A stretch of DNA of 64,000 nt from assembly GCF_009914755.1 (NCBI RefSeq), contig NC_060942.1; one strand, 5' to 3'. Under the pieces are notes generated by a model. That model did no database searches, was not told the origin of the DNA, and worked only from the letters and a program-made list of their open reading frames with translations. The position numbers were made by a program, and so were the translations under genes. Positions 3,858 through 41,025 of this stretch are shown one piece after another; the stretch's first letter is position 1; the number at the start of each line of letters is the position of its first letter. This DNA comes from the human T2T-CHM13v2.0 reference genome, Homo sapiens.

Positions 3858-5455
3858 GCTCCAATACTTGTGCTCTTAACCACAATGCAAATACAGATCT
3901 ATGTTTTTGAGTTAAATTATAGGAAAATGACTTTTTAAATCTCACTTCTCATGACCAGGATTTTCCAAAGCTTTTCCCCTAAAAAATCATGCACTTCTGT
4001 ATTTCTTTCCTTTGACCTCACTACAGTTTGGTTGACTGTCTGAAATTCAGTTTTGCACACAGGGTACTTGCTCCATAAAATATATGTTGAATGGCTGAGC
4101 AAAAGACTTGAGTAAAAGGATCCTTTAGCAGGTTCATTATTTTATAATGTATATTCATTGAATCAAAGTTTAAATATGAATGTCTTCTCAAGAGCATTAG
4201 TAAGGGATAGCTACTTTTGTTTTTAGGGGACCTTGGGAGTAGGCAAGATTCGGAATTGTGTTTGGAATATAAGTGCTCAGATGACTGCTTTAAGAATAAT
4301 CTGTATAAAAATGTGCTAAAAGAACATTAATATTGATATACAGCACTAGTTCTCTGAAGCAAAGTGAAAACACGTCGATGATTCCTTACCCTCTGATGAA
4401 AATACACATCTTTCATTTGAGTCTGTGTTCATGCCATGGTCACAAATGGATGTGGTGGGGAACTGCCCTATCTATCTCTTTTTTTGTCTCAAACTGGCAT
4501 GTAAGAAGGTGTTTCTCAAGTGGAGTTAACTAACGTTGGAGACTCCAGCCTCTGCTGCCAAACAGGACACTAGCCAACATGCTGGCTTCCATGGTGAATA
4601 AGAAGTAGAGGTGTTGGTGCCAGTAGCCAGCCATGAGTTGTGTGGGACTATGAAGGTTATCTACACTCTCTGCACTGCAGTTTCTCCATGGTTAAAAGAA
4701 AAGAAAAAGAAAGGGGAAAACAGGGAGGGAACAAGGAAGAAAAAGAGGAAGAAGAGGAGGGGAAGAAAAAAATATGAGTCATCTTGGAGAGCTGTGGGAA
4801 TAAGCACCATGAAGCCTAGCACAGAAGAGGTCTGCCCTGCCTTCACCATGTCTTCTTCCCATCCTTAAGTGGTTTATTAGAAGAGTAACTTTTGTACCTA
4901 AAGACCATAGAATTTTGCTTTCAAATAACTAAGCTATTTTTTCCAGTTCAACTCTCCACAATCTATTTTCCTGTGCATTTACTTTACATCTCCCCAGAAG
5001 ACTTACTAAGTGTCTTAATAAGCCCTCAGGCCACCTGCTGGTGGACAACAGTTCTAGCTGACAACCACCACTATAGCTCATAAGCCTTGCATCCTTTTTT
5101 CCTTCCTTTCTCCATTTTTCTGACTAGTGCTTGGAAAAGAAGAAAGCAAAAACAATAGTGGCTTTGCAGTTTGTATTATTAAAGTACAGTTTCAGAAAAG
5201 TAACTTTGCACCAGATCATATACAGAGGGAACCCCATCAGGCTAACAGCAGACCGTTCAGCAGAAACCTTATGAGCCAAAAGGGATTGGGGGCCTACTTT
5301 CAGCACTCTTAAGTAAAAGATATTTCAACCAAGAATTTCGTATCTCACCAAATTAAACTTCAAAGGCAAAGAAGAAATAAAATCTTTTCCATATAAGCAA
5401 CTGCTAAGGAATTTGTTGCATCTAGACCAGCCTTACAAGAGATCCTTAAGGAAGG

Positions 5456-5803
5456 TGTATTAATCTGTTTTCACGTGGCTGATAAGGACATACCTGAGAC
5501 TGGGCAATTTACAAAAGAAAGAAGTTTATTGGACTTACAGTTCCACGTGGCTGGGGAGGCCTCATAATTACGGTGGAAGGCAAGGAGGAGCAAGTCACAT
5601 CTTATGTGGATGGCAGCAGGCAAAGACGGTTTGTGCAGGGAATCTCCCATTTTTAAAATCATCAGACCTCATGAGACTCACCATCATGAGAACAGCATAG
5701 GAAAGACCTGCCTCCATGACTCAGTCACCTCCCACTGGGTCCCTCCCACAACATGTGGGAATTCAAGATGAGATTTGGGTAAGGACACAGCCAAACTACA
5801 TCA
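5456..5803 (-). mobile_element. THE1 solo LTR (ERVL-MaLR) inserted into L1
   Basis: tgtattaatctgttttcac...cagccaaactacatca termini; 5-bp TSD gaagg/gaagc. Confidence 0.9.
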
Positions 5804-6797
5804 GAAGCCTACACATGGAAATTAAAGAACAATATCTTCTACCACAAAAACACAGTTATGTACATAGCCCATAGACCCTAAAAAGCAACCACACAATAGG
5901 AACTACAAAGCAACCAGCTAACAACTTCGCAGTAGGATCAAAATCTCATATATCAACATTAACCCTGAATGCAAATAGTCTAAAACTCTCCACTTAGAAG
6001 GCACAGAGTTGCAAATTGGACAAAGAAACATGATAATTCCATCTGCTCTCTTCAAGAGGCCCATCTGACACATAATGACACCCACAGAATCAAAGTAAAG
6101 AGGTGGAGAAAGATCTATCATGCAAGCAGAAAACAAAAATAATATAAGAATAGCAGAGGTTGTTATTCCCATATTAGATAAAACAGACTTTAAACCAACA
6201 ACAGTTAAAAAAAAAGTGGATGGCAAAGTAGGGTATTACATAATGATAAAGAGTTCAAGTCAACTAGAAGACTTAGCTATCCTAAACACATATGCACCCA
6301 ACACTGGGGCACCCAGATTCATGAAACAACTACTTCTAGACCTACAGAAAGACTTACACCATCCCACAATAGTACTGGAGGACTTTAACATGCCACTGAC
6401 AGTGTTAGACAGATCATCAAGGCAGAAAACTAACAAATAAATTCTGGACTTGAATTTGATAGTTGACCAAGTAGACCTAATAGGCATCTACAGAATACTC
6501 CACCAATCAAAACAGAATATGCATTATTCTCATTTGCACACAGAACACATTCCAAGATAAACTACATGATTGGCCATAAAGCAAGTCTCAATAAATTAAA
6601 AAAAATTAGTAATCATACCAACAGTACTCTCAGACCACGGTGGAATTAAAATAGAAATCAATACCAAGATCTCCCAAAACCACACATTACATGGAAATTA
6701 GAAAACTTGCACCTGAATGACTTTTAGGTAAATAACAAAACTAAGGCAGAAGTAAAAAAAAGTCTTTGAAATAAATGAAAACAGAGATACAACTTAC

Positions 6798-6824
6798 CCA
6801 AACCTCTGGGATGCAGCACAAGCA
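6798..6824 (-). CDS. L3MBTL4: Alternative 27-nt L3MBTL4 micro-exon from antisense L1 ORF2, encoding VLVLHPRGL
   Basis: acttttctcttcacag|TGCTTGTGCTGCATCCCAGAGGTTTGG|gtaagt; phase 1-1, in frame after the 71-nt exon; matches a 9-aa insert I recall in one L3MBTL4 isoform. Confidence 0.8.
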
Positions 6825-7867
6825 CTGTGAAGAGAAAAGTTTATGACATAAACACTTACCTCAAAAAGTTAGCAAGATCTCAAACTAACAATCTAATATC
6901 ACATCTAGAGGAACTAGAAAAACAAGTATAAACTAACCCCAAAACTAGCAGAAGAAAAGAATTGACTAAAATCAGAGCAGAACTGAACAAAATTTAGACC
7001 CAAACATACATACAAAGAATCAACAAACCAAAAGTTAGTTATTTGAACAGATAAACAAGATTGATAGACAGCTAGCTAAATTAACAAAGAAACAGAAAAT
7101 CCAAATAAGCACAATCAGAAATGACATAGATGACACTACAACCAATCCCACGGAAATAAAAAAAAATCCTCAGAGACTATTATGAACATCTCTATGCACA
7201 CAATCTGGAAAATCTAGAGGAAACTGATGTATTCCTGGAAACACATAACCTCCCCAGATTGAATCAGGAAGAAATTGAAACCTTGAGCAGACCAACATCT
7301 AGTCCCAAAATTGAACTGGTAATAAAAATCTTACCAACCAAAAAAAGCCCTGGAGCAGATGGATTCACAGCCAAATTCTACCAGATGTACAAAGAAGAGC
7401 TAGTACCAATCCTACAGAAGCAATTCCAAAAAATTGAGGAGGAGAGACTGACTCCTCCCTAACTGATTCTACATAGCCAGCATCACCCTGATACCAAAAT
7501 CTGGCAAAAACACAATGAAAAAAAAGATTTCAGGCCAATATACCTGATAAATATAGACACAAAAATCCTCAGCAAAATACTAGCAAACTGAATCCAGCAA
7601 TACATCAAAAAGTTAATTCACCAGAATCAAGTAGGCTTCATTCCTGGGATGCAAGGTTGGTTCAACAAATGCAAATCAATAAATGTGATTCACAGCATAA
7701 ACAGAATTAAAAACAAAAATCATATGATCACCTCAATAAATGCAGAAAAAGCCTTTGATAAAATCCAACATCCTTTCATGTTAAAAACCCTCAACAGACT
7801 AGTCATCAAAGGAAAATACCTCAAAATAATAAAAGCCATCTGTGACAAACCCACAGCCAACATCTGA

Positions 7868-8023
<156 letters not shown>

Positions 8024-8584
8024 TAAGTCAAATTATCTCTCTTTGCTGACAGTACGATTCTACACCTAGAAAACCCTAAAGACTCTACCAAAAGCCTCCT
8101 AGAACAGGTAAACAACTTCAGTAAAATTTCAGGATGCAAAAACCAATGTAGAAAAATCAGTAGCATTTGTACACACCAATAACATTCAAGCTGAGAGCCA
8201 AATCATTTCAAATAGCTACAATAAAAATAAAATAGCTAGGAGTACCTAGGAGGTGAAAGATCTCTATAAAGAACTACAAAACACTGCTGAAGGAAATCAT
8301 ACATGATATAAACAAATGGAAAAACATTCCATGTTCATGGATTGGAAAAATTAGTATCATTAAAATGGCCATACTGCCCCAGGCAATTTACAGATTCAAT
8401 GCTATCCCTATCAAACTACCAATGTTATTTTTCACAGAATTAAAAAATATAATTCTGAAATGTATTTGGAACCAAAAATAGCCCAAATAGCCAGAGTACC
8501 CTTAAGCAAAAAGAACAAAACTGGAGGCATCACATTACCCAACTTCAAATTATACTGTAAGGCAACAGTAATCAGAATAGCATT

Positions 8585-8966
<382 letters not shown>

Positions 8967-9080
8967 TCAGTAAAGCTGGGATAGCTGACTAGCCATATGC
9001 AGAATGAAACTAGACCACTACATTTCACTATATGCAAAAATTAACTCAAGATGGATTAAAGATTTAAATGTAAAACCTCA

Positions 9081-9224: not shown

Positions 9225-11188
9225 GAATCTTAGAAGAAGACCTAGGAAACACCATTTTCTGAATATTGGCCTTGAATTTGACTAAAAAGCAATTGCAACG
9301 AAAACAAAATCTGACAAGTGGGACCTAATTAAACTAAGAAGTTTCTGCACAGCAAAAGAAATTATCAATAAACAGACAACCTACAAAATGGGAGAAAATA
9401 TTCTCATACTGTGCATCCAACAAAGGTTTAATGTCCAGAATCTATAAGGAACTTAAACAAATCAACAAGCAAAAATCAAATAACCCCATTAAAAAGTAGG
9501 CAAAATGCATGAACAGACATTCCTCAATAGAAAACATACAAGTACCCATCAACAGTGGATTGGATAAAGAATATCTGGTACATATATATCATGGAATACT
9601 ATGCAGCCATAAAAAATGAAATCATATCTTTTGCAACAACGTGGATGCAGCTGGAGGCCATTATCTTAAGTGAATTAACACCAGAACAGAAGATCAAATA
9701 CTGCATGTACGTGGTTATAAGTGGGAGTTAAATATCACGTACTCATGGACATAAAGGTGGCAAAAATAGATACTGGAAACTAATAGAGGGAGGAGGGAGG
9801 AAAGGGGGCAAAGGTTGAAAAACTAACTATTGGGTGTTATGTTCAGTACTTGGGTGATGGGATTATTCACGCCCCAAACCTCAGCATCATGTAATATATC
9901 CGTATAACAAACCTGTACATGTAACCCTTGAATTGAAAATAAAAGTTGAAATTATTTTGAAAAAGGAAAGTAACTGCACACAAAGCTCAATTTGTAATTG
10001 CACAGAGCACACCTCTGCAATTCTCTCATGTTCTTTATTTGTTAATACAAATTTTTAACTGATCAGGATGTGAGCTAGCAAAATTCTATCGCAAAACATA
10101 GGTGAGAGTTCAGGAAGGCAGTAAATACAGGATACTGAGTATTATAAGTAAGAAATTACCCACAATACTCATGCTACTCAATTGGGCATAATAAGAGGCC
10201 AAACTTTTTTTAAAAAAATTATAAAGTGACATAGTGACAATGCGACATGGGAGGGTACTGGGTCAAAAGATGGATGCAAAGTTAATTATCTGTATCCCTT
10301 TCCTCTGGATAAAGAACTTGCGTAATCTGACTTCTCACCAAATCCTGTTCTCCCCTCATACTCTCCCACACGATGTCAGGGAAACGCTTTAGGACCATAT
10401 AAAATCCTGGCTGATTTAGCTTTAGCATTTTCCTTTGAATAGAAACTGTAAAAACTAGTTACATTCACCATTCTGAAAAGCAATTAACCTTGTAGACTTT
10501 ATAATGATAAAAATATTAATAAATTCACTGTGTAATTTTTACAATTTAAGAGCAAAGTTCCATAGTCTTTATAAATGGTTATACCCTCTATTATTACCTG
10601 TGCACAATAATTTCTAAAGTATATAGCTTAGGGCAACTCAACAAAATCAATGCCTAATATTTTCCAAAATGCAAATATAATCTGATGCCAGTGTGCTCTC
10701 ATATTTTCTATTTGAATAAAATTCAGTAGCTCCATGGGCTGCTGCTGTGAAGTGTATGACTTCCGTTTTTTAATGAAATTTTTTCTCTTCTTCTCTTAGG
10801 GAAATAGCATGGGTCTGAAATGAGTTCTGGAGAGAGGGAGACAAAGCTAAGGGGGGGAATTTTTTATTCCTCCCAGCTCATAATGGGAAAAATAGAATAA
10901 GAAGCAAATTTTGTTGTAGAATGTGTATTGATCTGTTCTTAATGTGCTACATATTGAAGAATTCTGGACATGTGATATCAACACAGTTTGTGATCCTGTT
11001 TTTCTCTGGCCTCAGGTCTCTGGGGAAGCCGATGTGAGAGGTGCTGGTGGCAGCTGCCGCCAGGTCAGTGCTAGGCTGCAAGAGCCTGTGATGTTGATGC
11101 ATGGACACCTTCTCAGCCTGAGGGAGGCACATCCCGCAGAACTCCTTTTGCTAGTATTCCACACTGTGTCTTTAGTGTATGCTAGTCA

Positions 11189-11675
<487 letters not shown>

Positions 11676-13432
11676 TCAGTGGATGATTGCGGCCCTTTCT
11701 TCAAAATGTCGGCAGTGGATTGGGCGTGTTCTGTGACTGTGGTGGAGACAATGACTGTGGCCCTGGGTGGAGCCACCACCTTCCTGTATTTGTGGGACTG
11801 TCTGAGGAGGTGGTGCCTGTGCTAAGGGAAGGTTTCCTCCTCGGAGTGGTGAGCTGTGTTCACGGACCCCGGCACCGTAAGAGCCTATTTTTCAGCATGG
11901 CGTTCACTACACTACCTTAAGAATTCTTGGCTTGGCAGGATGAGTGTTAATAGTGGGGGAGAACTGAAAGTGGCCACTGTGGGGCTGGAACAGATATCAC
12001 AGAAAACACCAGAGGAGTCTTGTAGAATTTCCCATCAGTAGAGACTCTGTCTCATTCAACATTGATGGTGCGTCTTTGGCTATTGAGCTCTGAGGTGTTT
12101 CCCTTGCAGTTTCCCTAATACCAATTGTTCAGTGAGAACATTTCTACTTTAGAAATGGGTTTTTTGAAAAGCAACTGGAGGCAGCTCCAAAGGCTTTGTA
12201 AGAACTTAGAGAAATATTTAGTAATGACTAAAAATTTCCTTTAAGTCGACTTCATAAGCATTTTCTCTTTGATGTTTTGATTTTTAAATTATGAATATAC
12301 ATAGCTACTGATAGCATGCTACCAACTGGAAATTCCTATTAACTGGCATGGTCGCATGGATAAATACAATTTAAAGTGATGTTAAAACAATGGCTCTGAA
12401 GTTAAGTCTACAGAGTGCTTTCTGAATCACAAAGCAATACAAATATGTTCAGCATTTTTCAGTATCAAATTAATTACACATTTTCAGAATATGGCAGTTT
12501 ATATATAGCTAACTTTTAATAAAGAAATATATTGGATTGTAATAACTATGAATCAGTACTTACTCCCTGCCAGTTGCTGGCTACAGTGAACAGTGGGGCT
12601 TACTGCACTTCTACGCCTCTTGTGGAATAACAAATATCAGTCTTCAAACATTTAAGCAAATGAAAATAAAGGTCAAATATCCTTGTTTGCCCTTTGCAGC
12701 TGAAAGGGCAAGTTACACAATTCTTATGTATTTTTCCATCTAATCTTCTGAGGAAAGAAAGAGAATCTGAATTTACGTTTTGCAAATGGCTCACTTTTTC
12801 TTACTTTGCCAATAGTGGAGAATTTTCTGTTTCAAGACTCAGTGCGTTAGTAGGCTAATGGACATAAAGAATTCCAACACTGCTAGTTCTCAGGGAAAGA
12901 ACAGGCCAACAAAATGGAAAATGTACTGCAGTGGACGAAATCGTGCTATACAAATGGAGTGCTGTAAATCCCTAAACTACAGTGCACACTTGTTGGCAAG
13001 GCAGAAACATTCACAATTCAGAGGATTCCAGCAGGACGTCCCGTTAATTTGTATTTCCCAGAACAAATTTATCATTCGGAAGAACAAGTCCAATAAACAA
13101 ACGTTGATTATCAACCAGTCCTTGTTCATTGTGTCTTTCTATTTTTAAATGGTAGAAGGAGTGTCATGCATTTCCAGCTAGTGTTGGCTCTTCACAATAC
13201 ACTATGCTAAGACAGTAAAATAATTTCTAATCTAGTTAGGTGTGTTAGTAAAGCATCTGCTTGCATAGCTAAAATACTAATTTGTGATGGCAATAAACAT
13301 AGAGAAAGAGGCAAGGGACTTATTTTCAGAAATGCTACAAAATTCACTCAGTACTGAGTTTCCACTGCAGGACTGGAACTGGGTTAGACTAAGAGGATGC
13401 GAAAATAAGTGAAGATTTCCTGCTTATAAGAA

Positions 13433-13876
13433 TGTGAAAGTTGCTGGTACCAAAATGGAGTCACTTATGTCCAATCCTAACGAAATGGATACAGGAGGCC
13501 ATGAAGGGAAGGCCCTCATGCACATTTGTCTGATAACTGGTACTATCACAAAAGGCTGCCAACACCACAACCTTCACAAAGGCCATCGCAACCTTGCACA
13601 AAGATTACTTCTGTGAGGATGCCTGCTCATTAATGGCCTGTTCACTAATAGACTGACTCACCCTTGTTATTAATACTTGTAGCCAAGGATAGTTGCTTCA
13701 AAACAACGAATGCAACTGCCCTCCTTTCCCCTTTAAAAACCTTGCCTTCCTTTGCTTCTCTGGTTGCGCCTATGGTCCACTGCAGCATGCGTATCCTAAT
13801 GACAATTTCTTGCTATTCCCCAGTAAACTCTTTCTTTGGAGAGCTTGTCTCCCTCTGTTGTTATTTTAAGTTGATG
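13433..13876 (+). mobile_element. MER65-like ERV1 solo LTR
   Basis: Starts tgtgaaagttg...caaaatggagtcac; TATA-like tttaaaaa and agtaaa; ends ...ttgatg; 4-bp TSD agaa/ggaa. Confidence 0.75.
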
Positions 13877-16800
13877 GGAAGTTCACAGTCTAGTGGGCAC
13901 ATAAATGATATGTTCAATAAAGGCAGATGACCTAAATATGTGAAAAGTGACTGAAAAAAATCATGGCGTGCAAATGCTTTTGCAAAGTCTAATTGACATG
14001 CTTAGGTTAAGTTCTATACTTCAGAATGTATAAAAGACATTTTTTGCCTGTTTTTGCCAGGTGCTAGCAAACACAACACCTCTCTTCTGATGTTGCTCTT
14101 CAAGTCCCTCTGCTTCTTTCCTACCTGGGAGATAGAGGCTCTCAATGCTTTTGTGTGTTTGTCCATTCTTAGTGATAACATCTTCCCCACTAAAGACTCT
14201 CTAAACTCCATCTTTACAGCACTGTAGATCTTAGTATGCGAAACTGATGGACTGAGACACCTGACTCAGCCTGCATCGTCACAATTTTTTTTTCTTGGCA
14301 AACAGATTGTCTCATACATTGCTGTCACTTAAGTCCCCCAGAGTGCCCACCGGCTCGCATTAGGAGGCAGTGCAGGATGGCAGTCCAGTACAGGCTCTGT
14401 AGTAAGACCTGGATTCAGTCCCTGGCTCCATCCCTGAGGTGTGGAGTCAGGGGTATGAAAGTCAATTCCTGTACCTTAGTTTCCTCTCTCTGTGAGAATA
14501 TCAAATCAGATACTCCCTCCAGGGGTTTACCACACTCAGTACTCTTACTGCCAGTGAATGGAACCACTTAGCAAACATCCTTCTTTTCCTCCGAGGCCCT
14601 CTGCCCTCGCCCCCGCCCCTTCCCTGACACTTCATTCCCCTCATCCTTTGGATCTGGGCCATGTCACTTTCCCAGAGACAGGCCCTGATCTCCCAGCCCT
14701 GTGCTGCCCTTGCCTGGCACTTATCTCAGCTGTAACCTCAAACAGATTAACGCTTCGCCACAGAGCTCCACAACAGCTCAGACCAGCGCTGCTCTTATTT
14801 ACTGTGGTATGGCCTGTGCCTAGAATAATGCTGGGTATGTAAAGAATATGTCCTGGATGAACCCATGAATGATGCTGGGACCACAGACATGGTTCTGTGG
14901 AAATGCCGCAAGGCCCCTGCATGGCCAGGGAGGTGGCACCACACAACTGGGCTTCGGGCTCTTTTTCCCTTTCCCTGAAGCTCAGCTTCCCTCTGCTTCA
15001 CTTACAGGTTATTCCACATGAATCCACTGGAAGACACTAAAATACAGTTGAAAACACCTGGTTTTAAGCCTCGTTCAGAGGAATTGCACCTTTAACCTCA
15101 GGAATCTGTGAGACAGTATGACTAGATACCTTAGCGCTGTCCATTTGGAGAAGCAAGTCAAATTTCATCTCATGCCTATTTTCAGTGACTAGTTATATCA
15201 TCCTGAGTTACATATGAAAGAGAAACCATTTTAGTCATCCCAACTTCTCTTATGAATTTCCTAGATGTTCATGATGTTTAAAGATATTTTAACCTTTGGC
15301 ACAATGAAGCCCCCCAAAGAAAATTTCTGACATTTTGGACATTCATTCTCTGATTAATTTATATTGTTAATGACATCTGATATTATGACCATGTTCACTT
15401 TGCTCAGACCTCATTATCTTTCAAATCACTAGGCTTAAAAGTTGTCAAGGCTGGGATAGAGGTGTAGGGTTCTATGCCCCAACCGTTAAGAGGAAGAACC
15501 ATTCACCTGACCAGATATATTTGAAAGTAAGTTTTCTTCGATAGTATGTTAAAGGCACAGATTGATTGATTGATTGACTGATTGATTTTTTTGCTGGGGC
15601 AATCTAGACAGCTTGGTCAGCAAAGGTTTTTTATATTAAGGCTAAATAGAAAACAATGCTCAAACAAGAGTTACAACTTTGAAAACTTGTTATTCTCCAA
15701 CCCTCATGTTAACAGAAGTGATTTTAAAAACCATCTTTTGATACAAAATATAATAAGGAAACAATTAAAAACCTCTGCAATTTAGCCAAGCACAAAGCAT
15801 CATCTCACAGTGGTCCGGGGGAGGGGTGCCCAGTGCCAGAGAAACAGTGACTGAGTTGGAACCCAGATTCTCAGACCCCCAGGGAAGGATCCTTCCACTA
15901 TTATACTTCATGATATGTATGTGAATCACAGATGACTAAGCTTTTGTCCTCAGCCTCTTCTCTGTATAAGGGACTTTGTGTTTATTTTTAAAGCATACTA
16001 ATATCAACTGTGAACCATAATCTAATCACTATGCAAGTGGCTATAAGGCGATGACCTCAGAGTTGCACTGGTCAGCCAGGCGGAAAACGCCTCAGTGTTT
16101 CGGGGGGAGTGGTAGTTTCCTCTACTTTGTTTTAAAGCATGGATTTGGGTTGATATGTCCATATTTCATTAAACTAAAAGGAATCTGGGCTGTAAAATTC
16201 ATTAACAGTGAGACAGCGATTCTGTCATTTCCAAGAAGAAATTTCTGGCCAAGCAGAAAGGCATTCTTCTTAAGAAAAAAGAGACTGTCATTAAACAAAC
16301 AAGCATGTCAGAGACACTGAAATGGCTTTTGCCTTCGGACTTCAGCGCCAATCTATTCAGCACAAAGCAAAATTCTCAAAGTTTCAGCAGAAGTTTGCTT
16401 TTGTGTTTGAGCAAGAACTCAGCAGTAGTCAGACAGGAAGCAAAAGTCACTGCATCCTGAGCACACACACCACATGGGCCCCTGCTAGGCAGGAGGCACT
16501 GGGCAGGAGGCTCCCTCTGAAGTGTTATTAGCCTACTTCCAATGAATTTATGGAGAAATGTCTGAGTGCTGGTCAGACCTTTATATATAGTGTGCCTTAT
16601 TTTTAATGCCCTTTCTTATGCACTCAGCTGCTTTGAGAGGTAGAGAAAGGCTCTCTATGCGACAGGCAAGGAGACTCAGGCCCACCCCCAGGGCTCAGCC
16701 ACAAAGCGAGTTTGTGGCTGGGCTTAAAGTCAGGTCTCCAACCCCACTTCTAATGGCACTTTCCGTGAAACCACACAGTCAGTTAACTCCGTGGGTGTCC

Positions 16801-16993
16801 TGATGAAATGGTAGGCCATGGGGGAAAAGCTCTGGATTTGCAGAGGTCACTCTAAGCTGCAACTCTGTCATTATTGAGCTGTGTGACGTTGGGTAAATCA
16901 CCTGCTCTGCAGATCAAGTGCCTCAACAGTAAAACAGAAACCACAATCTTTCAGAGGAAAAATGGGACAGACATGAAAGTAATTTATAAATGA

Positions 16994-17405
<412 letters not shown>

Positions 17406-17875
17406 AAAAGTATGTTTTTCATAATAACAGAATAAAAACTAGGCAAGAGTGTATAACAATCTATCACCACTGGGGAAAATTGGTTTTTATTTTTTAATTA
17501 TCTCTTTCTAAAGGCAAATAAAAGAGAAAAATGTCATCAAAATACCTATATCTAAAAAACTCAGGAAACTTCTCTCTCTGTTTAGTTTCTACTTTCTTTA
17601 AATACTTCTTGTTTACTTTATTAATTTTTTTGTGATTATTTTATAATCTGACTTTTTCTGAACCTCAAAATCACTGAAAACTTGGCAGTCAAAATGTGAA
17701 GAAAAAAATGCATCAACTAAAAAGTATTCAAAAAAAGAAAACAAATCAACAATGAAAAACATTAAAAAATAATGAACGAGGGAGAACCACGTAAATAATA
17801 GAAGAAAGAGTTGTCTGTGCTAATAAATAAAGTCCATGACAAAAATGATACACGGTGTACCCCCACAAGGCAGCA

Positions 17876-17918
17876 GTAACCATAGCAACAAGACAAGCAG
17901 TGTACTCAGAGTGACTCA
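17876..17918. promoter_or_regulatory. RFX X-box (GTAACCATAGCAAC) with a nearby AP-1 site (TGACTCA, 17912-17918)
   Basis: Motif match only, in non-repetitive sequence. Confidence 0.4.
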
Positions 17919-19881
17919 ACCAAATACTTAACATATATCAGGTATAGTTCCTAAGCCTATTTTCATATGGTATTGAAATATTTTATGCCCCTTCCTTATC
18001 TAAAATTGCTCATAATAGCTATTCCTTTAATTTATAAAGAGATAAAAATTTCTTGTGTCTTAACTTTTGTAATAATCAACATGACTTAACTCAAGTATGC
18101 TGGAACCAGCAACAACTCTCATTTTCTAGTTCTCAGTAATGAATTTCAGTTGAACTGAAACAGATTGTCCAATGATACGTGTGGGAATCAAGACATCAAA
18201 TCCTGATTCTTCTCCTTAGACATAAGGTGCTTGGCATTACTATTTATAAGTTTTATCTCTTAGAAATTTAATGAAATGTCAAAATAGCAGTGCTGTCTGG
18301 GTAGAGAATCCCAGGGCAATCTTTGTCTGAAGGTTTTTAAGAAAAGGAATTCCACGGCCTCATTCTCTACATTGCTCCAGTACCCTGAACCTTCTACCTA
18401 ACACTTTTGCTGCATCCTTTAGAACAAGCCTTGAATTGTTCCTCATTGTCTGTGTCTTTATGGAGTATAAATCTCAGGTTTAGAAAACTTTTTCGTACAA
18501 AACAGGCCTGTCTCCCCAAGGAGACTATGAATCAGGGAAGTTTTTGTTTGTTTTTGTTGTTTTTTTTCAAGTCCACGGTACCCATAATCAAGAGAAAAAG
18601 TGTCTCACACTATCAATCTGATGGAGGGATGCAGGGGCTTTCTCTCTTTGATCCAAGGTATATTTGAAGGTAAAGGTTCTTTGCTCTGGCCTGGGGACAT
18701 TTCCCTTTAGCACTGCAATTAGAGACAAAGAAGACAAAGCCTGGCAGTGCTGTGGGAGGAATGATGAATAAAGGAGAGAACTGCTTTACTTTGGGGGGCA
18801 TCCTCTACACCCATAAATAATCCGTACATGTTCATAGACTCTAAGGATGGAAATGCCACATCTTTCAAAGCCAACATGCATGTTAATCTGATACCGGGAA
18901 TAAGGTGAAGTTATTACAATTCCCTATCACCTTGCCTGGAATGGTGAGCCTGGAATCCAAGAATCTTAGAAGCCAGTTTTGGCTCCTGAGAAAAATACTG
19001 TGCAGTGTTGGAACACAAAGGTGCAATTATTCCAGTAATAAGATCTGCTTCTCCGGTTGTCTCTGGGCTGTCCACTCTCCCACAGCTCTGCACAGTCAAT
19101 AGCCAAGGACCCTCAGCTGACGGCAGGTGTCAGATTACTATTCCAGCAGCAGTGTCAGAGGGACTGATTACGCATCTAGTCTGGAGTGATGTGGAAAGGT
19201 GAAGCTGCATTCTATTATAACCAGAGACAGTGTCAGTATGGAGAAGAGGATGTGTCAGAGACAGACTCCAGTTCGAGAGGGTTATTTCTGGAATACTCCA
19301 AGGAAGCCTCTGGCGTGGCTGCCCACATGCACCAGACTTGTTGCTGTGGAATGTGGTGTTCAGAGTTGTCACTCCCTCAAGCCTTGTACCTAAAAATAAG
19401 TATCTACGTATTAAAGCAGGTTTATTTTTACTCAGACTTTCTTATTCTTGCAGTATAACTTTTCTTCACATTTACAATTTCAAAATATTTTGTCAATAAT
19501 GTTTATAATTCTTAAAAATCCATAAATCATAATCCATAAACCTTAAACCAAAGTCTTGTATTCCAGCAAGAAAACTGGCTTTCTCATTTTCATGTATTTC
19601 TGGAATTTGATAAGAAAAAATTTTGTATGAAAAGAAGGGCAAATGGATTTTTTTGAAGGATAATACAGAATATATTAAAAACCAAGCTAAAAAAAAAGCC
19701 TGATATCCTAGAAAGGAGACTAAGAGGGCACCCAGACCCCTCCACTCAGTTCCAAGAATCTTCTTCTCACTTAAAGCCTCATTGGCTGCTGTGATGACGC
19801 TTCTAGCAGAGCTGTGAGTGGAGGTGTTTCAGAAGATCTGTCAGGGAAACAAATTAATCATTTCAATCTTAGCACCTCCAA

Positions 19882-34788: not shown

Positions 34789-37700
34789 TACAAGTAAAGA
34801 CATTGGTTCTTTCTTGATCTGGGTGCTGGTACATAGATGTTTGTTTTGTTCAGATTCATTCAGCAATACAGTATCATTTTTACATTTTCCCAACTTATGA
34901 CATATTCCAGCTAAAAATTTCCTTGGAAATTATTTTAATATAATTCAGCACATTAAAAGAATAAAGGAGAAAATTCACATGATCATCTCTATACAAGCAG
35001 AAAAAGCATTTGATAAAATTCAGGAACATATATAAAAAGAAAAACTAGAAATGGAGGCAATTTCCTCAATCCACTATGCAGCATTATAAAAAACTACATC
35101 AAGCATCAATTAGGTATTAAAGAATACCTAATCAAACAGAAGGATGATCATGTTCATGAATTGGAAGATGCCAATTCACCTGAAATAAAACTATACATTC
35201 AATGCAATTCTAATTAAAATCAGAGTAGTTTGTATGATGTGTGTGTGTAAGTGAACAAGCTGATAAGAAATGTAAAGGAACAAGAATAGTTAGGGCAATC
35301 TCAAAGAAAAAGAACAAAAATGGAGGAGCGGCATTCTTAGCTATCAGAATTTATCATATAAAGTTATGTAATCAAGACACCATAGTATTGGCACAAGAAT
35401 AGCCAAGTAAACCAATGGAATAGAACGGAGTCCAGAAACAGACCCACACATAAATGGTTACTCGATTTATGACAAGTATGAACTACTTGTGTTACTACTG
35501 AGCAATAGGGAAATGACTTTTTAATAAATGGTGCTGGGTCAACTGAATATTCAAAGAAAAAGTAAATCTTCGCCTCTATGTTACACCATGCATAAAATCA
35601 CTTATAGGTACACTGTAGATCTAAATGTGAAAGATAAAAAAATAAAGATTCTAGAATAAAAATCAGCAAAATGAACATGTGGTTGACAAAAACTATAAAT
35701 GGCACACTAAAAGCATTAATCAAAATAGAACTGATAGACTATATTAAAATCTGGAATTTGCATTCATCACAAGGCATCATTAAGAGTGTGAAAAGGCAAA
35801 TGGTAGACTGGAGAAGATATCTGTAATACAATTATAAAACAATGAACTCATATATTGATCCAAAGAACTCCTACATATCAATAAAAAAAGACAATGTAAA
35901 AGACAAATGAGAAAGATACTTCATAAAAGAAGATATTCAAATAGCCAATAAACATGAAAATATGTTCAAGCTCATTAGGCCTCAGAAGGAAACCAAAATT
36001 AAAGCAAAATTAAATACCACTGTAAGCCCAAAAGAATGGCTACAATGAAAGAGACTGACAAATAGTAACTACTGGGAAAGATGCAGAGTACCTGCAATTT
36101 CCATACTGTGCTGGTAGGAACATCCTGGTACAACCACTTTGTAAAAATATTTGACACTAACTGCTGAAATTGAATTTCTGCAAACCCAATTGCCCAGAAA
36201 TTCCACTCATAGATATTTATCCTACAAAAATGCATACACATATCTACCAAATCACATACTAGAATGTTCCTAGTGGAAACAGTGCAAAACTGAAAACAAT
36301 CAACCTAAAAATGGATAAATTGTGGTATCTTCACAAAACTGAATAATATGTAGCAATGAGAATAAGCAAACTATGATTTGAATGGATCTTATAAACAATG
36401 TTAGCAAAAGAAGTCAGACATAAAAGTGTACATAACATCTGATTCCATTTATAAAATTTTGCAAACAGGGCAAAAGTAACTGAGAGTGAGCAAAATCAGA
36501 ATAGTTACCCTGGCAGGAGGAATGATAGGGGTCAGAAGCTTGAGGTGAGCTTCTGGTCATATGTTTCTTGATCTTAGTGATGATTAAATGGGTATGATCT
36601 CTGTGCACTTGGCTAAAATTTTTACTTATAACAGAAATAACCCGGAAGATGTATATGTACTGACTTAGAAAGGTAACCACAATATATCAATAAGTGAGGG
36701 AGGAAAAGCTGATTGTAGATCACCAAATATAATATGATTCTGCACTGGTAAAAAAAAATGTGAATTATTATATCCAAAATAAATCCATTAAGGATTTATC
36801 AACAATGCTTATCTCTTTCAATTTTTATTTTTCATTTTATGAAATTTGGGGATTTTTAGAAAATGAGCATTAATTAAAGGTTTGGGACCAAAAGAATAAA
36901 TATTAAAAAGAAACAACTTTCTAGCTGAACTTTCCACAATTCCAAAGGTATCTCACAGGTGGTGCAATGCAGTGGCCGTGAGAGTGACATCTCTTTGAGG
37001 GACCAAGGAGCGTCTAACGGCGACAGGACAGAGCACCTGGATGAGCAGATCCTTCCTCATGAATGCAAATGCACTTTAATTCACCTCCCTCAGCTTGTGC
37101 TCAGGGAGCAGGTTCTGTCCCATTCTCTGTGGAACACTCATTGAGCAAAGGAACAACTCAAAAGGCACAGAGGCCCAGCTCCGTCCTGGAGAAGGGGCTC
37201 GCGGTGTTGCCAAACACATAAACTCTATGTTCATGCATTATTTTACTTCGCAAAAGGCCCAAAGAATAATTATCACTTGTCATGTCTTAGGAGTAACACT
37301 CAATAAGCTTACCTGTAAACCTTGGATTAGTAAGACAAATTTCAACTTGCCCCTGTTATGCACAACCAACATCCTTTTAACATAATCATGGTTTCCTCTA
37401 CAGACTTTTATCATTACAAAGTAATTAAAATTTTTATCATCCAATCTTATGTTTATATATTGTTGTTGTTATATATGTTTATCCAATCTTACGTTTATAT
37501 ATTATTGCGATATATGTTTACGTATTGAAAAAAGTGTGTTCAGTAGCTAAGAATTACACTTGAAAATGATGGGTAGTCTTTAAAATATTTTTATTATATA
37601 TGCCAAGCATACATATGGTGAATAAAATGATTTTTAAAAGAAGTTTTCCAGTGAAAATGGAAAACATGCCCAAGATATAAAAAACAGAATCTGCGTGTGC

Positions 37701-37822
37701 ATCTATACATGTGTGTATACAATTTCCAAAAATCCAGTGTATATAACCTCCCCTCATAGAAGAAATAGAGCACAAATTTTAGCCCATTTTCCTTAAAAAA
37801 AAAAAAAAAATGGAAGACTCCT

Positions 37823-38136
37823 GGCTGGGCGCAGTGGCTCACGCCTGTAATCCCAGCACTTTGGGAGGCCGAGGTCAGTGGATCACGAGGTCAGGAGTTC
37901 GAGACCAGCCTGGCCAACATAGTGAAACCCCGTCTCTACTAAAAATACAAAAATTAGCTGGGCATGGTGGCGTGCACCTGTAGTTCCAGCTACTCGGGAG
38001 GCTGAGGCAGAAGAATTGCTTGAACCCTGAAGCAGAGGTTACAGTGAGCCAAGATCGCGCCACTGCACTCCAGCTTGTGTGACAGAGCAAGACTTCGTCT
38101 CAATAAATAAATGAACAATAAATAAATAATAAATAA
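37823..38136 (+). mobile_element. AluS, TSD aagactcct
   Basis: Full dimer, (TAAA)n tail, TSD. Confidence 0.95.
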
Positions 38137-38166
38137 AAGACTCCTGATGAATGAAGAAGGCACTCA

Positions 38167-38562
<396 letters not shown>

Positions 38563-38718
38563 TTATGATCAGATTTGCAGGCTTAAGAAAAATGAAATAA
38601 AATATTAAATAATCGTTTAATATCACCATAAGAACATATTTATTTTCATTATTTTGTCTCAGCCACGTTAGAACGAAAGCAAATATGCTTTATAATAATG
38701 GGGATTAGTCCCAAAGTA

Positions 38719-39244
38719 CAGCGGTCCCCAACCTTTAGTGGCACCAGGAACTGGTTTCATGGAAGACAATTTTTCCACAGACCAGGGGTGGGGGGATGGT
38801 TTCAGGATGATTCAAGTGCATTACATTTATTGTGCACTTTATTTCTATTATTATTACATTGTAATAGATAATGAAATAATTATGTAACTCACCATAATGT
38901 AGAATCAGTGGGAGCCCTGAGCTTGTTTTTCTGCAACTAGACAGTCCCATCTGGGGGTGATGGGAGACAGTGACAGATCGTCAGGTATTAGATTCTCATA
39001 AGGAACACGCAATCTAGATCCCTCACATGTGCAGGTCGCAATACTGTTCGTGCTCCTATGAGGATCTAATGCTGCAGCTGATCTGACAGGAGGCCGAGCT
39101 CAGGTGGTAATGTGAGCAATGGAGAGCAGCTGTGAATGCAGATAAAGCTTTGCTCCCTCGCCTGCCCTCTGCTCACCTCCTGCTATGCAGCCCAGTTCCT
39201 AACAGGCTACAGACCGGTCTGTAGCCTAGGTGTTGGGGACTCCG
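38719..39244. mobile_element. MER1A (hAT-Charlie)
   Basis: TIRs cagcggtccccaac...gttggggactccg; characteristic interior (ggaagacaatttttccacagac, ttagattctcataagga). Confidence 0.9.
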
Positions 39245-40954
39245 GACATACAAGGAAGAGCCACTTTGATTGACAAAAGGCTAGACTAGAAAGCAGGCGT
39301 TAACCACAGCCTGCCAATTTTCATGGGATGGAATGAACCCCACCTGCACTTCCCCAACACACAGTGGTCTGGGTCCACAGGCAGCCGTGTGCTCCACCTA
39401 AGGCCGACTGCTCCTCCCACCTCACACTCTTCTGACATAAATGCCATATCTGATAGCACAGACCTCTGCTGTGAGGAAACGGATATGTTTAAATTAAAGA
39501 GCACAGTAAATGCATGAATAAATAAAAGCATATGGGTGTAAACTCCTTATACATGATGCAGAAAAGAACAAGTGCATTCTGAGCATCTTGGAAGAGATTT
39601 CATCTTTCACAGTATGCAAATGCATTTTGCTATGACATTTTCTATTTTTGTAAGGATGATCCTCATTACTACATTTATGATATGAACTACAAAATTGTGT
39701 ATCTGTTTGAACAAGAACATATACATAATTACTCTGTGGAGATATTTTCAAAAGTGTCAAACTATGAATTACAACACTGGCACTTTTTTTTTAAGGCTTC
39801 TTACATGGTTCCAAAACATGTCGTTTACAGAATGAAGGCTTGGTAAGATGGATGAGAACATTTGTATGGAACAGTTTCTAAAATATCAGTGATTTATTTT
39901 ATTTAAAGCAGACTTGAGCTCTGGTTATATTACATAGAAATTCTTCTTATGAGGGAGAAACATGTAGCTGCACAATGAATCCAAAGTAATTCAACTGCCC
40001 TCTCTTTTCTGAGGAAAAGGCCTCGTGTGGCTGAGATGAAATCCACAATTCCTCCAACACAAGCAAGAGCTCCATCTCTGCCTGAAGTGAGCAGTTCAGC
40101 ACTGCTCCCTGGCCTCCCGGCCCTTTTGTTCAATGACTGCCAAGCACCCTCTCCTTCTCTTAAGAAAAGTCCAATGGGTAACGAGATGGCACAGTCCAGC
40201 ACAGTGTGCTAATTCACTGGACTTCTACCAGGTCAGTAGAAAGCTCAGCAATGTTCCTTCCCTCTAGAAGGCAGACAGATCTCCTACATCTTCCGGGAGA
40301 CACAAATGTACAGAGCTGCCAAGGCTGCAGGTGGGCTAATAGAAATTATCAATGTTTGCATCTGACTAAATCAAAACGGAACCTGGAGAAAACTGATTCC
40401 TTAGCTTGGTACAATATAATCCAACCTCAAAATTCTGTCTATATGGAGCCTTCATTGGAAAGAAACGTAACTAAAAGAACACATGCAATTCTTCTTCCTA
40501 GACTCCAACAGATTCCTCAGCTCTGATGGTTTAATTTTTTGCCTAATACTCTTCTAGCCTTTCTTACTAATGAGGTGCATCTCACAGTCTCCCACCTTCA
40601 CAAGTTCAGTGAGACACTCCTGGTTTCCCTCCATGGCCTCTGCAGATGGCAGAGTGGGATTCAACCATTGAACCTCTAACTTCTGTTGGTTTACACTTTT
40701 CCTATCATGAGTGGGGACCATAGAGATCATAGAGTCCAGTCCTTTTACTTTTAAAATGAGAAAATGAAGGTTTGAGTAGTGAAGTGAAGGGACTCATTCA
40801 CAGGGCGGGAACTAGAACACAAGTCTCTTTTGACTTCTAGTTAGGCTCTTTCTACCATTCCCTGTTGGAATGATAAAACCAAACAGTCAAACAAATAAGA
40901 CATTCTGCACAACAAAAAGTATATTCTGTGTTTTGCTAGTGTTTTTGTTTTTAC

Positions 40955-41025
40955 CTCTGAAGAGATTATCCAAGTCAATATCTTCTTTTCCTTTGATTTT
41001 CAAACACTTTGCCTGCTGTACAAGT
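40955..41025 (-). CDS. L3MBTL4: L3MBTL4 internal coding exon (71 nt, phase 2-1): (R)LVQQAKCLKIKGKEDIDLDNLFR
   Basis: Acceptor ttttatttctgttctttgcccag|A, donor GAG|gtaaaa; joins in frame to the 174-nt exon (AG|A = Arg). Confidence 0.95.

What the first reader, a model, noticed from the sequence alone, without database searches (positions are those of the whole stretch)
6798..6904. Sterically exclusive exon pair in the L1: 45-nt poison exon versus 27-nt in-frame exon
Seen: a second candidate exon, 6904-6860, has acceptor cttgtttttctagttcctctag|A and an ideal GAG|gtaagt donor. After the 71-nt exon it reads DVILDC-stop. Only 35 nt separate it from the 27-nt exon, too short for a normal spliceosomal intron. 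The best branch-point match for the 27-nt exon (tgctaac) lies inside the 45-nt exon. Inferred: a TE-derived switch with possible outcomes of skip, +9 aa, or NMD/SAM-less truncation; a fused 107-nt exon would also truncate. I am not aware of this being described.
Basis: partly seen in the sequence, partly recalled or inferred. Interest (0 to 1): 0.7.

Follow-up and report, generated by a model that had tools for sequence, protein, structure and literature searches.

The report
L1-derived microexon beside inherited pseudoexon
An annotated 27-base L3MBTL4 exon inside an old antisense L1 sits 35 bases downstream of an exon-like stretch carried by most copies of that L1, and nothing available here shows that stretch is ever spliced, so the proposed "switch" is physically sensible but unproven and rather ordinary.

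Summary

Comparing 56 other genomic copies of this L1 separates the two units:
- **45-nt unit:** its acceptor AG, its GAG|GT donor, the CTAAC and even the in-frame stop are inherited L1-antisense features found in most copies.
- **27-nt RefSeq exon:** it became spliceable through a local AC-to-AG change (1 of 30 and 0 of 26 other copies have AG). Its donor was also improved, from GTATGT to GTAAGT.

The 45-nt donor is the best U1 match of all 3,226 GT sites on the gene strand of the window. A second AG 9 nt upstream offers a competing 54-nt version with the same stop.

The two units could not be spliced as separate neighbouring exons, because 35 nt is below the roughly 50-nt threshold between 5' splice site and branch point.

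Nothing I could reach shows use of the 6904 acceptor or the 6860 donor. None of the 31 RefSeq models contains them, and no paper I found mentions them.

Best reading: a young L1-derived microexon next to a silent or rarely used NMD-prone pseudoexon whose U1 site probably dampens the microexon. A regulated switch is not excluded but is unlikely.

The parts
6798..6824 (-). 27-nt alternative exon of L3MBTL4 (RefSeq, other transcripts). It adds VLVLHPRGL in frame after the 71-nt exon.
   Evidence: Hub annotation for the exon. Sequence and frame. Acceptor cacag| and donor TGG|gtaagt.
6825..6826 (-). AG of the 27-nt exon's acceptor, a locus-specific change. Other L1 copies carry AC here.
   Evidence: AG in 1 of 30 copies (sample A) and 0 of 26 (sample B). 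AC in 25 of 30 and 18 of 26 (alignments).
6792..6800 (-). Donor of the 27-nt exon, TGG|GTAAGT. The GT is inherited (mostly TTG|GTATGT in other copies) and has been strengthened here.
   Evidence: GT in 24 of 30 and 16 of 26 copies. No other copy reaches the window's 7 of 9 consensus match. U1 pairing rank 15 of 3,226 GT sites.
6825..6859 (-). 35-nt spacer between the two units. It holds the weak branch candidate TTTAT (A6849, 24 nt from the acceptor), a pyrimidine tract and a CTCTT motif at 6834.
   Evidence: Composition A9 C6 G5 T15.
6860..6904 (-). 45-nt exon-like unit (pseudoexon candidate). It reads D VILDC stop after the 71-nt exon.
   Evidence: The homologous segment is exactly 45 nt in 25 of 30 and 14 of 26 other L1 copies. 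No RefSeq transcript uses it (hub table).
6885..6887 (-). In-frame stop TAG of the 45-nt unit. Other copies have TAA in the same column.
   Evidence: TAA in 28 of 30 and 20 of 26 copies.
6854..6862 (-). Donor-like site GAG|GTAAGT, the strongest U1 match in the window. Other copies mostly carry GAG|GTAGG.
   Evidence: 8 of 9 consensus match, one of 15 such sites among 3,226 GT. Duplex with the U1 5' end is -12.6 kcal/mol, rank 1 of 3,226. GT in 26 of 30 and 19 of 26 copies, and a 9-mer identical to the window's in 2 of 30 and 1 of 26.
6868..6874 (-). tgctaac, the best branch-point consensus match upstream of the 27-nt exon. Its A6869 is 44 nt from the acceptor and lies inside the 45-nt unit.
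   Evidence: CTAAC is present in 23 of 30 and 11 of 26 copies. AGs at 6861-6860 and 6856-6855 lie between it and the acceptor.
6905..6935 (-). Acceptor region of the pseudoexon. It has tandem AGs at 6915-6914 (54-nt version) and 6906-6905 (45-nt version), a pyrimidine tract, and the branch candidate TTTAT (A6929).
   Evidence: The 6906-6905 AG is in 25 of 30 and 20 of 26 copies. The 6915-6914 AG is in 27 of 30 and 20 of 26 copies.
5200..9000 (+). Decayed L1 (ORF2 endonuclease to reverse-transcriptase part), sense on the + strand and so antisense to L3MBTL4. It is interrupted at about 5450-5800 and by an Alu at 8579-8900.
   Evidence: RVT_1 at 7592-7867, E 9e-9. ORF2-like open stretches. Homology coverage map (the upper limit is set by the 1.5-kb flanks fetched). 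Thousands of genomic matches.
40955..41025 (-). Upstream constitutive 71-nt coding exon. It ends in phase 1 (last base G), with donor GAG|gtaaaa.
   Evidence: Hub annotation. U1 pairing rank 126 of 3,226.

Best explanation
The annotated 27-nt exon is a young exon born inside an old antisense L1. The L1's antisense strand already carried a pyrimidine tract and a GT, read as TTG|GTATGT. At this copy an AC-to-AG change created the acceptor, and further changes turned the donor into TGG|GTAAGT.

Thirty-five bases upstream lies an exon-like unit of 45 nt, or 54 nt from the neighbouring AG. Nearly every copy of this L1 family carries this unit: tandem AGs, CTAAC, GAG|GT and an in-frame stop. In this copy a G-to-A change at +4 made its donor a near-perfect U1 site.

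I think this upstream unit is mostly a silent pseudoexon.
- When U1 sits on it, it lies 10 nt from one candidate branch point of the microexon and 10 nt from the other. It therefore probably interferes with U2 assembly and keeps the microexon at low inclusion.
- When the pseudoexon is occasionally spliced in, the transcript carries a premature stop and is lost to NMD.
- The two units cannot be joined as separate exons.

Shown: the sequence anatomy, the frames, the L1 origin, which signals are inherited and which are local, and the U1 ranking.
Inferred: all splicing behaviour.
For: - **Anatomy and frames:**
- **L1 identity and orientation:**
- **Inherited versus local signals:**
  - 45-nt acceptor AG in 25/30 and 20/26 copies.
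  - 45-nt donor GT in 26/30 and 19/26.
  - CTAAC in 23/30 and 11/26.
  - Stop column TAA in 28/30 and 20/26.
  - 27-nt acceptor AG in only 1/30 and 0/26.
  - No other copy matches the window's donor strength at the 27-nt site.
- **Sampling:** sample B was chosen on the neighbouring 7000-7300 segment, so it is not biased towards the window's states. Its 26 rows include 5 truncated or interrupted copies, which count as 'different'.
- **Annotation:** no RefSeq model among 31 uses 6904 or 6860 (hub table).
- **Background:** similar-quality pseudoexons occur elsewhere in the window without annotation (8 at my thresholds, on 5 distinct donors).
- **Steric threshold:** about 50 nt between 5' splice site and branch point (PMC5740500 and PMC7969005, passages).
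- **Known repression:** antisense-L1 cryptic exons in long introns are commonly repressed by MATR3/PTBP1 (PMC6108849, passages). One ATCTT (6878) and one CTCTT (6834) lie in the pair.
Against: - The 6859 donor is the single best U1 match of 3,226 GT sites in the window, and the acceptor tract is good. Appreciable use is therefore quite possible.
- NMD targets are under-represented in annotation, so absence from RefSeq is weak evidence.
- I had no RNA-seq, no SpliceAI or MaxEnt scores and no branch-point data.
- The dampening effect of the U1 site on the microexon is inference only.
- MATR3 motif density in the L1 is 2.94 per kb, against a tile mean of 1.38 with sd 0.98. That is only modestly raised.
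Confidence: 0.55

Rival explanations
1. The 45-nt (or 54-nt) unit is a genuinely used poison exon that competes with the 27-nt exon. The gene then chooses between skipping both, +9 aa, or a stop followed by NMD or a SAM-less protein, possibly under control of L1-binding repressors.
For: - It has the strongest U1 site in the window, good pyrimidine tracts with tandem UAG acceptors, and an in-frame stop.
- Steric exclusivity follows from the 35-nt spacing.
- MATR3 and PTBP1 motifs are present.
- Antisense-L1 exons in long introns are de-repressed on MATR3/PTBP1 loss (PMC6108849).
Against: - None of the 31 RefSeq models uses it (hub table).
- L3MBTL4 is not in the text or the 5 held supplements of PMC6108849.
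- The signals are generic to this L1 family, so nothing indicates selection at this locus.
- Both units are below 50 nt, a size that is poorly defined as an exon (recalled general knowledge).
- Four annotated longer alternative exons in this intron each stop the frame soon if joined to the 71-nt exon, so a poison exon may add little. Whether they are so joined, or are terminal, was not established.
Confidence: 0.2
2. Larger composite exon. The splicing machinery defines one exon from the 6913 or 6904 acceptor to the 6797 donor (116 or 107 nt), ignoring the internal donor. The 27-nt form and this long form are then alternative-acceptor versions of one exon.
For: - 107-116 nt is a normal exon size, whereas 27 and 45 nt are not.
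- Both outer sites are good.
- The long form carries the same stop.
Against: - The internal donor is stronger than the outer one, rank 1 against rank 15, and would be expected to win.
- No such exon is in the hub's RefSeq table.
Confidence: 0.07
3. Recursive splice site. AG|GTAAGT at 6861-6854 acts as a zero-length recursive site in this intron of more than 41 kb, with 6859-6798 as the defining 'RS exon'.
For: - AG is directly followed by GTAAGT, one of only 3 such sites on the gene strand of the window.
- A second GTAAGT lies 62 nt downstream.
- Joining to the 71-nt exon (...GAG) would rebuild the same donor.
Against: - The acceptor would be GAG, the rarest type by recalled knowledge.
- My count on the sequence gives only about 63% pyrimidines upstream.
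- The only branch consensus, CTAAC, is 9 nt from that AG, which is too close. PMC7969005 (passage) gives more than about 8-12 nt as the minimum.
Confidence: 0.03

Closest known systems
LINE-derived (antisense L1) alternative and cryptic exons repressed by MATR3/PTBP1 (Attig et al. 2018, PMC6108849; passages read)
   Same: - Both units lie in an antisense L1 deep in a long intron.
- One is an annotated low-profile alternative exon and the other is an unannotated exon-like unit.
- MATR3-type (ATCTT) and PTBP1-type (CTCTT) motifs are present.
   Different: - No binding or knock-down data exist for this locus.
- L3MBTL4 is absent from that paper's text and from its 5 held supplements.
- Here two units sit only 35 nt apart.
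Sterically enforced mutually exclusive exons: alpha-tropomyosin exons 2/3 (recalled), OGDH exons 4a/4b (PMC7969005, passages), and the 57 clusters of Hatje et al. 2017 (PMC5740500, passages)
   Same: [quoted passage not shown]
   Different: - Classical pairs are both used, are usually similar in length and sequence, and encode alternative versions of one protein segment.
- Here the units are unrelated (45 versus 27 nt), one carries a stop, and its use is unproven.
- The entire intron, not just the branch distance, is below the threshold.
Poison exons coupled to NMD
   Same: An in-frame stop in a short cassette lies upstream of further exon junctions.
   Different: - Well-studied regulatory poison exons are typically conserved and are detected in NMD-inhibited cells.
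- This one is an inherited repeat feature with no expression evidence.
Decoy splice sites and decoy exons that engage the spliceosome non-productively (caspase-2 In100 and decoy exons in retained introns; recalled, not read here)
   Same: A strong splice-site-like element next to a weak alternative exon could bind snRNPs and repress the exon without being spliced itself.
   Different: No experiment exists here. The known decoys were defined by mutagenesis.
Gradual birth of repeat-derived exons by point mutation (Alu exons; PMC5115870, seen only in a search listing)
   Same: A repeat's antisense strand supplies near-splice sites, and a single base change (AC to AG) completes the 27-nt exon.
   Different: The source is an L1 ORF2 segment rather than an Alu, and the product is a microexon.

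Membership tests
Antisense-L1-derived exon | Overlaps an L1 fragment lying antisense to the host gene | tested here: met
   RVT_1 lies on the + strand. L1 homology spans about 5200-9000. The gene is on the minus strand (hub table).
Antisense-L1-derived exon | Is spliced into mature transcripts | not testable with these tools
   The 27-nt unit is annotated in RefSeq (hub table, not verified here). For the 45-nt unit there is no annotation and no RNA data to hand.
Antisense-L1-derived exon | Repression by MATR3/PTBP1 binding | not testable with these tools
   Only motifs could be counted: ATCTT at 6878, CTCTT at 6834, and an L1-wide ATCTT density of 2.94 per kb against 1.38 +/- 0.98 in window tiles.
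Sterically enforced mutually exclusive exon pair | 5' splice site of the upstream exon lies less than about 50 nt from the branch point of the downstream exon | tested here: met
   The whole spacer is 35 nt. The candidate branch points are A6849, 10 nt downstream of the donor, and A6869, 10 nt upstream of it and inside the unit. The threshold comes from the papers read.
Sterically enforced mutually exclusive exon pair | Both exons are used, one at a time | not testable with these tools
   No transcript evidence for the 45-nt unit. RefSeq lists only 6798-6824.
Sterically enforced mutually exclusive exon pair | Exons are homologous or interchangeable coding versions | tested here: not met
   The units are 45 and 27 nt with unrelated sequence, and the 45-nt unit has a stop after six codons.
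Poison exon (AS-NMD) | In-frame premature stop upstream of later exon junctions | tested here: met
   TAG at 6887-6885 is in the frame set by the 71-nt exon. Later exons of the 19-exon transcript lie beyond the window (hub table).
Poison exon (AS-NMD) | Inclusion detectable and raised when NMD is blocked | not testable with these tools
   No RNA-seq access.
Recursive splice site | Good 3' splice site (pyrimidine tract, YAG, branch point at least about 18 nt upstream) fused to a 5' splice site | tested here: not met
   The 5' part is perfect (GTAAGT). The 3' part is GAG, and the only YTNAY lies 9 nt upstream.

The most novel reading that the evidence does not exclude
An antisense L1 has supplied a three-way splicing module. 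It combines an inherited poison pseudoexon, whose donor has drifted to a near-perfect U1 site, with a microexon created 35 nt downstream by a single AC-to-AG change. U1 on the poison donor and U2 on the microexon's branch site exclude each other. L1-binding repressors such as MATR3, PTBP1 or HNRNPM could then set the ratio of full-length, +9-aa and degraded L3MBTL4 mRNA. This would be a repeat-born, sterically hard-wired dosage switch for a SAM-domain chromatin reader.
Probability: 0.06. Interest if true: 0.55.

Novelty: new member of a known kind. Interest (0 to 1): 0.25.

Why it matters
If the pseudoexon were shown to be used, this would be a tidy example of how one repeat copy can give a gene both a coding microexon and a competing poison exon that physics keeps apart. 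It would also suggest that other copies of this L1 family carrying the same inherited unit are latent poison exons.

As it stands, the useful result is narrower. It is a clear case history of exon birth: the acceptor was made by one base change and the donor was improved. It also shows that the exon-like partner is a family-wide L1 feature rather than a locus-specific device.

Tried and rejected
- **RNA structure hiding or presenting the sites.** The fold of 6950-6770 is no more stable than shuffles (z 0.77; 151 of 200 shuffles fold at least as well). Rejected.
- **Recursive splice site at AG|GTAAGT.** The 3' half fails. Kept only as a 3% rival.
- **Chance clustering of two GTAAGT.** There are 20 on the gene strand against 14.1 +/- 3.7 in 30 shuffles. 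By my own arithmetic, two within 62 nt is not remarkable, and both positions already held GT in the ancestral L1.
- **Exact-pattern count of CTAAC-N-GAGGTARGT.** There are 21 genomic hits against 1 for the reversed control, and 5 of the 21, including the window's own, have GTAAGT. This shows other copies share the arrangement, but exact matching undercounts old diverged copies.
- **Pfam on the 57 aa of the 174-nt exon.** No domain at E up to 1, so the position relative to the SAM domain rests on PMC2933619 (passages). In its own build and exon numbering, that paper places SAM-truncating breakpoints in intervals containing or following its exon 16. My placing of these downstream of the pair rests on an approximate coordinate offset, not on a call.
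- **Pfam on three other L1 open stretches.** No hit.
- **Literature.** L3MBTL4 was searched with alternative splicing and exon (8 papers), with transposable element (6) and with isoform and splice (11).
  - None of the listed titles or abstracts concerns this exon pair.
  - The two papers I opened mention only an alternative-terminator event (PMC7419053) and positive selection (PMC2287170).
  - A looser search with cryptic exon, poison exon, NMD and LINE-1 listed 20 of 1,421 papers, none holding L3MBTL4.
  - PMC7951965 gave no L1 exonization hot-spot map.
- **Two look-ups that failed.** Both failed on a term shorter than 3 characters and were not repeated. PMC5435141 was therefore not read.

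Full report
**Observation**

cttgtttttctagttcctctag|ATGTGATATTAGATTGTTAGTTTGAGATCTTGCTAACTTTTTGAG|gtaagtgtttatgtcataaacttttctcttcacag|TGCTTGTGCTGCATCCCAGAGGTTTGG|gtaagt

- The 45-nt unit is 6904-6860, the spacer is 6859-6825 (35 nt), and the 27-nt unit is 6824-6798.
- The two coding exons in the window (174 and 71 nt) are open in only one frame. That frame leaves a single G at the end of the 71-nt exon.
- From that phase the 45-nt unit reads D-V-I-L-D-C-stop, with TAG at 6887-6885.
- The 27-nt exon reads VLVLHPRGL and stays in frame.
- A fused 107-nt block meets the same stop.
- tgctaac sits at 6874-6868, inside the 45-nt unit.

**What the surrounding DNA is**

- The + strand carries decayed L1 ORF2. 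There are ORF2-like open stretches and an RVT_1 match at 7592-7867 with E 9e-9.
- Homology to other genomic copies runs from about 5200 to at least 9000. It dips at about 5450-5800, and an Alu occupies 8579-8900 (and the hub's mask list).
- The genome holds thousands of matches: 2,923, 2,303 and 5,530 first-look candidates, with 40 scored each time.
- Identity to the window is 82-87% over the 201-nt query. The median is 77.5% over 66 HSPs of at least 800 nt.
- The pair therefore lies deep in an old L1 that is antisense to the gene. NCBI's mask list does not cover 6798-6904.

**Inherited versus local signals**

I aligned the region with two samples of other copies.

- Sample A has 30 copies, chosen by similarity to 6760-6960 itself. 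It leans towards the window's states.
- Sample B has 29 loci chosen on the neighbouring segment 7000-7300, of which 26 hold the region. Five of those 26 are truncated or interrupted there and were kept in the counts.

| Feature | Sample A | Sample B |
|---|---|---|
| 45-nt unit: acceptor AG (6906-6905) | 25/30 | 20/26 |
| 45-nt unit: second AG 9 nt upstream (6915-6914) | 27/30 | 20/26 |
| 45-nt unit: donor GT, mostly as GAG|GTAGG | 26/30 | 19/26 |
| 45-nt unit: CTAAC | 23/30 | 11/26 |
| 45-nt unit: stop in the same column, as TAA | 28/30 | 20/26 |
| 45-nt unit: homologous segment exactly 45 nt | 25/30 | 14/26 |
| 27-nt exon: acceptor AG | 1/30 | 0/26 |
| 27-nt exon: ancestral AC at that acceptor | 25/30 | 18/26 |
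| 27-nt exon: donor GT, mostly TTG|GTATGT | 24/30 | 16/26 |

- No other copy reaches the window's 7-of-9 consensus match at the 27-nt donor.
- The exon-like upstream unit is thus a family-wide property of this L1's antisense strand.
- The annotated exon was completed locally by one AC-to-AG change plus donor improvement.
- The window's upstream donor is also improved, from GTAGG to GTAAGT. Only 2/30 and 1/26 copies have the same 9-mer.
- An exact search for CTAAC...GAGGTARGT finds 21 genomic sites against 1 for the reversed control. Five of them have GTAAGT, this one included.

**How strong, and how unusual**

- On the gene strand of the window, 15 of 3,226 GT sites match the donor consensus at 8 of 9 or more positions.
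- The upstream donor is one of these. The 27-nt donor matches 7 of 9.
- By pairing energy with the U1 5' end (a recalled short motif), the upstream donor ranks 1st (-12.6 kcal/mol) and the 27-nt donor 15th.
- The constitutive 71-nt exon's donor ranks only 126th of 3,226.
- With simple thresholds the window holds 8 exon-like units on 5 distinct donors. The thresholds were at least 75% pyrimidines, YAG, no nearby AG, a donor matching at least 8 of 9, and 20-300 nt.
- Three of those units share the 6860 donor, with acceptors at 7075, 6944 and 6913. None is annotated.
That AG defines a competing 54-nt version reading VPLDVILDC-stop.
- The local RNA fold is unremarkable (z 0.77).

**Branch points**

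Between 6910 and 6825 the only YTNAY matches are:

- CTAAC (A6869), 44 nt from the acceptor.
- TTTAT (A6849), 24 nt from the acceptor.
- TTCAC (A6828), which is too close to the acceptor.

However, AGs at 6861-6860 and 6856-6855 lie between it and the acceptor. The second of these is 14 nt from A6869, beyond the roughly 8-12 nt below which AGs are bypassed (PMC7969005, passage). The weak TTTAT is therefore equally plausible. Either way, the branch site lies 10 nt from the upstream donor.

**Sterics**

- Here the whole spacer is 35 nt, so the two units cannot be spliced to each other as neighbours.
- The limit is not absolute. Validated human introns of 30 and 37 bp exist, but they are G-rich (PMC4675715, passages). 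This spacer has only 5 G in 35 nt.

**Is the 45-nt unit used?**

I could not test this.

- The hub's RefSeq table lists 6798-6824 as the only small alternative exon here. No exon among the 31 transcripts starts at 6904 or 6913 or ends at 6860.
- Attig et al. [quoted passage not shown]
- L3MBTL4 appears neither in that paper's text nor in its 5 held supplements. The gene may simply not be expressed in HeLa.
- Searches pairing L3MBTL4 with splicing, isoform or transposable-element terms listed no title or abstract about this pair. The two papers I opened do not mention it either.
- One ATCTT (6878) and one CTCTT (6834) lie in the pair. ATCTT density across the L1 is 2.94 per kb, against 1.38 +/- 0.98 in window tiles.

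**Most likely mechanism**

- The 27-nt exon is a young L1-derived microexon.
- The upstream unit is an inherited pseudoexon that is silent or rarely used.
- Its very strong U1 site, 10 nt from either candidate branch point, probably hinders U2 assembly for the microexon and keeps its inclusion low.
- Rare inclusion of the 45/54-nt unit would give a premature stop and NMD.
- Everything about splicing behaviour here is inference. The anatomy, the frames, the repeat origin and the inherited-versus-local split are shown.
- I put 0.55 on this reading.
- The rivals get 0.2 for a genuinely used competing poison exon, 0.07 for a composite 107/116-nt exon and 0.03 for a recursive site. The recursive site's 3' half is GAG, with the only branch consensus 9 nt away.

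**Comparison with known systems**

- It works like the sterically enforced exclusive pairs (alpha-tropomyosin 2/3, recalled; OGDH 4a/4b) in geometry only.
- It fails the membership test on interchangeability, and use of the second exon is untested.
- It fits the class of antisense-L1 exons and cryptic exons in long introns.
- The SAM-less consequence is plausible. PMC2933619 (passages) states that breaks in intervals containing or following its exon 16 would remove the SAM domain.
- By an approximate coordinate offset of my own, not a call, those intervals lie downstream of the pair.
- Four annotated longer alternative exons in the same intron would each end the frame soon after the 71-nt exon if joined to it.

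**Verdict**

Its distinctive half is a generic repeat feature. Interest is low to moderate. The informative by-product is the single-base birth of the annotated microexon.

Noticed in passing
window 9904-19389, 35538-38950, 39043-40335, 39879-40861 (minus strand): The four long alternative exons annotated in this intron would each end the reading frame soon if joined to the 71-nt exon, after 87, 4, 40 and 16 residues. Only 39879-40861 has AATAAA motifs just before its 3' end. A TCGA-based paper lists an L3MBTL4 alternative-terminator event (PMC7419053). SAM-less forms may thus already arise by alternative last exons.
   Followed up: partly
L020 (G000:C3:1754183-1754379, minus): This is the only other sampled L1 copy with AG at the column of the 27-nt exon's acceptor (GAACAG|TGC). 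It also keeps the GT donor, so it could be exonizable in the same way if it lies antisense in an intron.
   Followed up: no
window 58337 and 21913 (minus strand): These are the two other AG|GTAAGT sites on the gene strand of the window, a recursive-splice-like motif. Neither was examined further.
   Followed up: no
window about 5450-5800: Homology to the other L1 copies drops from about 25-35 matching copies to 3-4 here. This suggests a different repeat inserted into the L1.
   Followed up: no
window 8579-8900: An Alu is inserted in the same L1. On the gene strand it reads poly-T first, so it is antisense to the gene, the orientation known to be prone to exonization. It lies about 1.7 kb upstream of the exon pair.
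   Followed up: no
window 48808-48764, 35259-35180, 31134-31082, 31054/30928-30779 (minus strand): These are other unannotated exon-like units in the window that passed the same simple acceptor and donor thresholds. They illustrate the background of pseudoexons.
   Followed up: no
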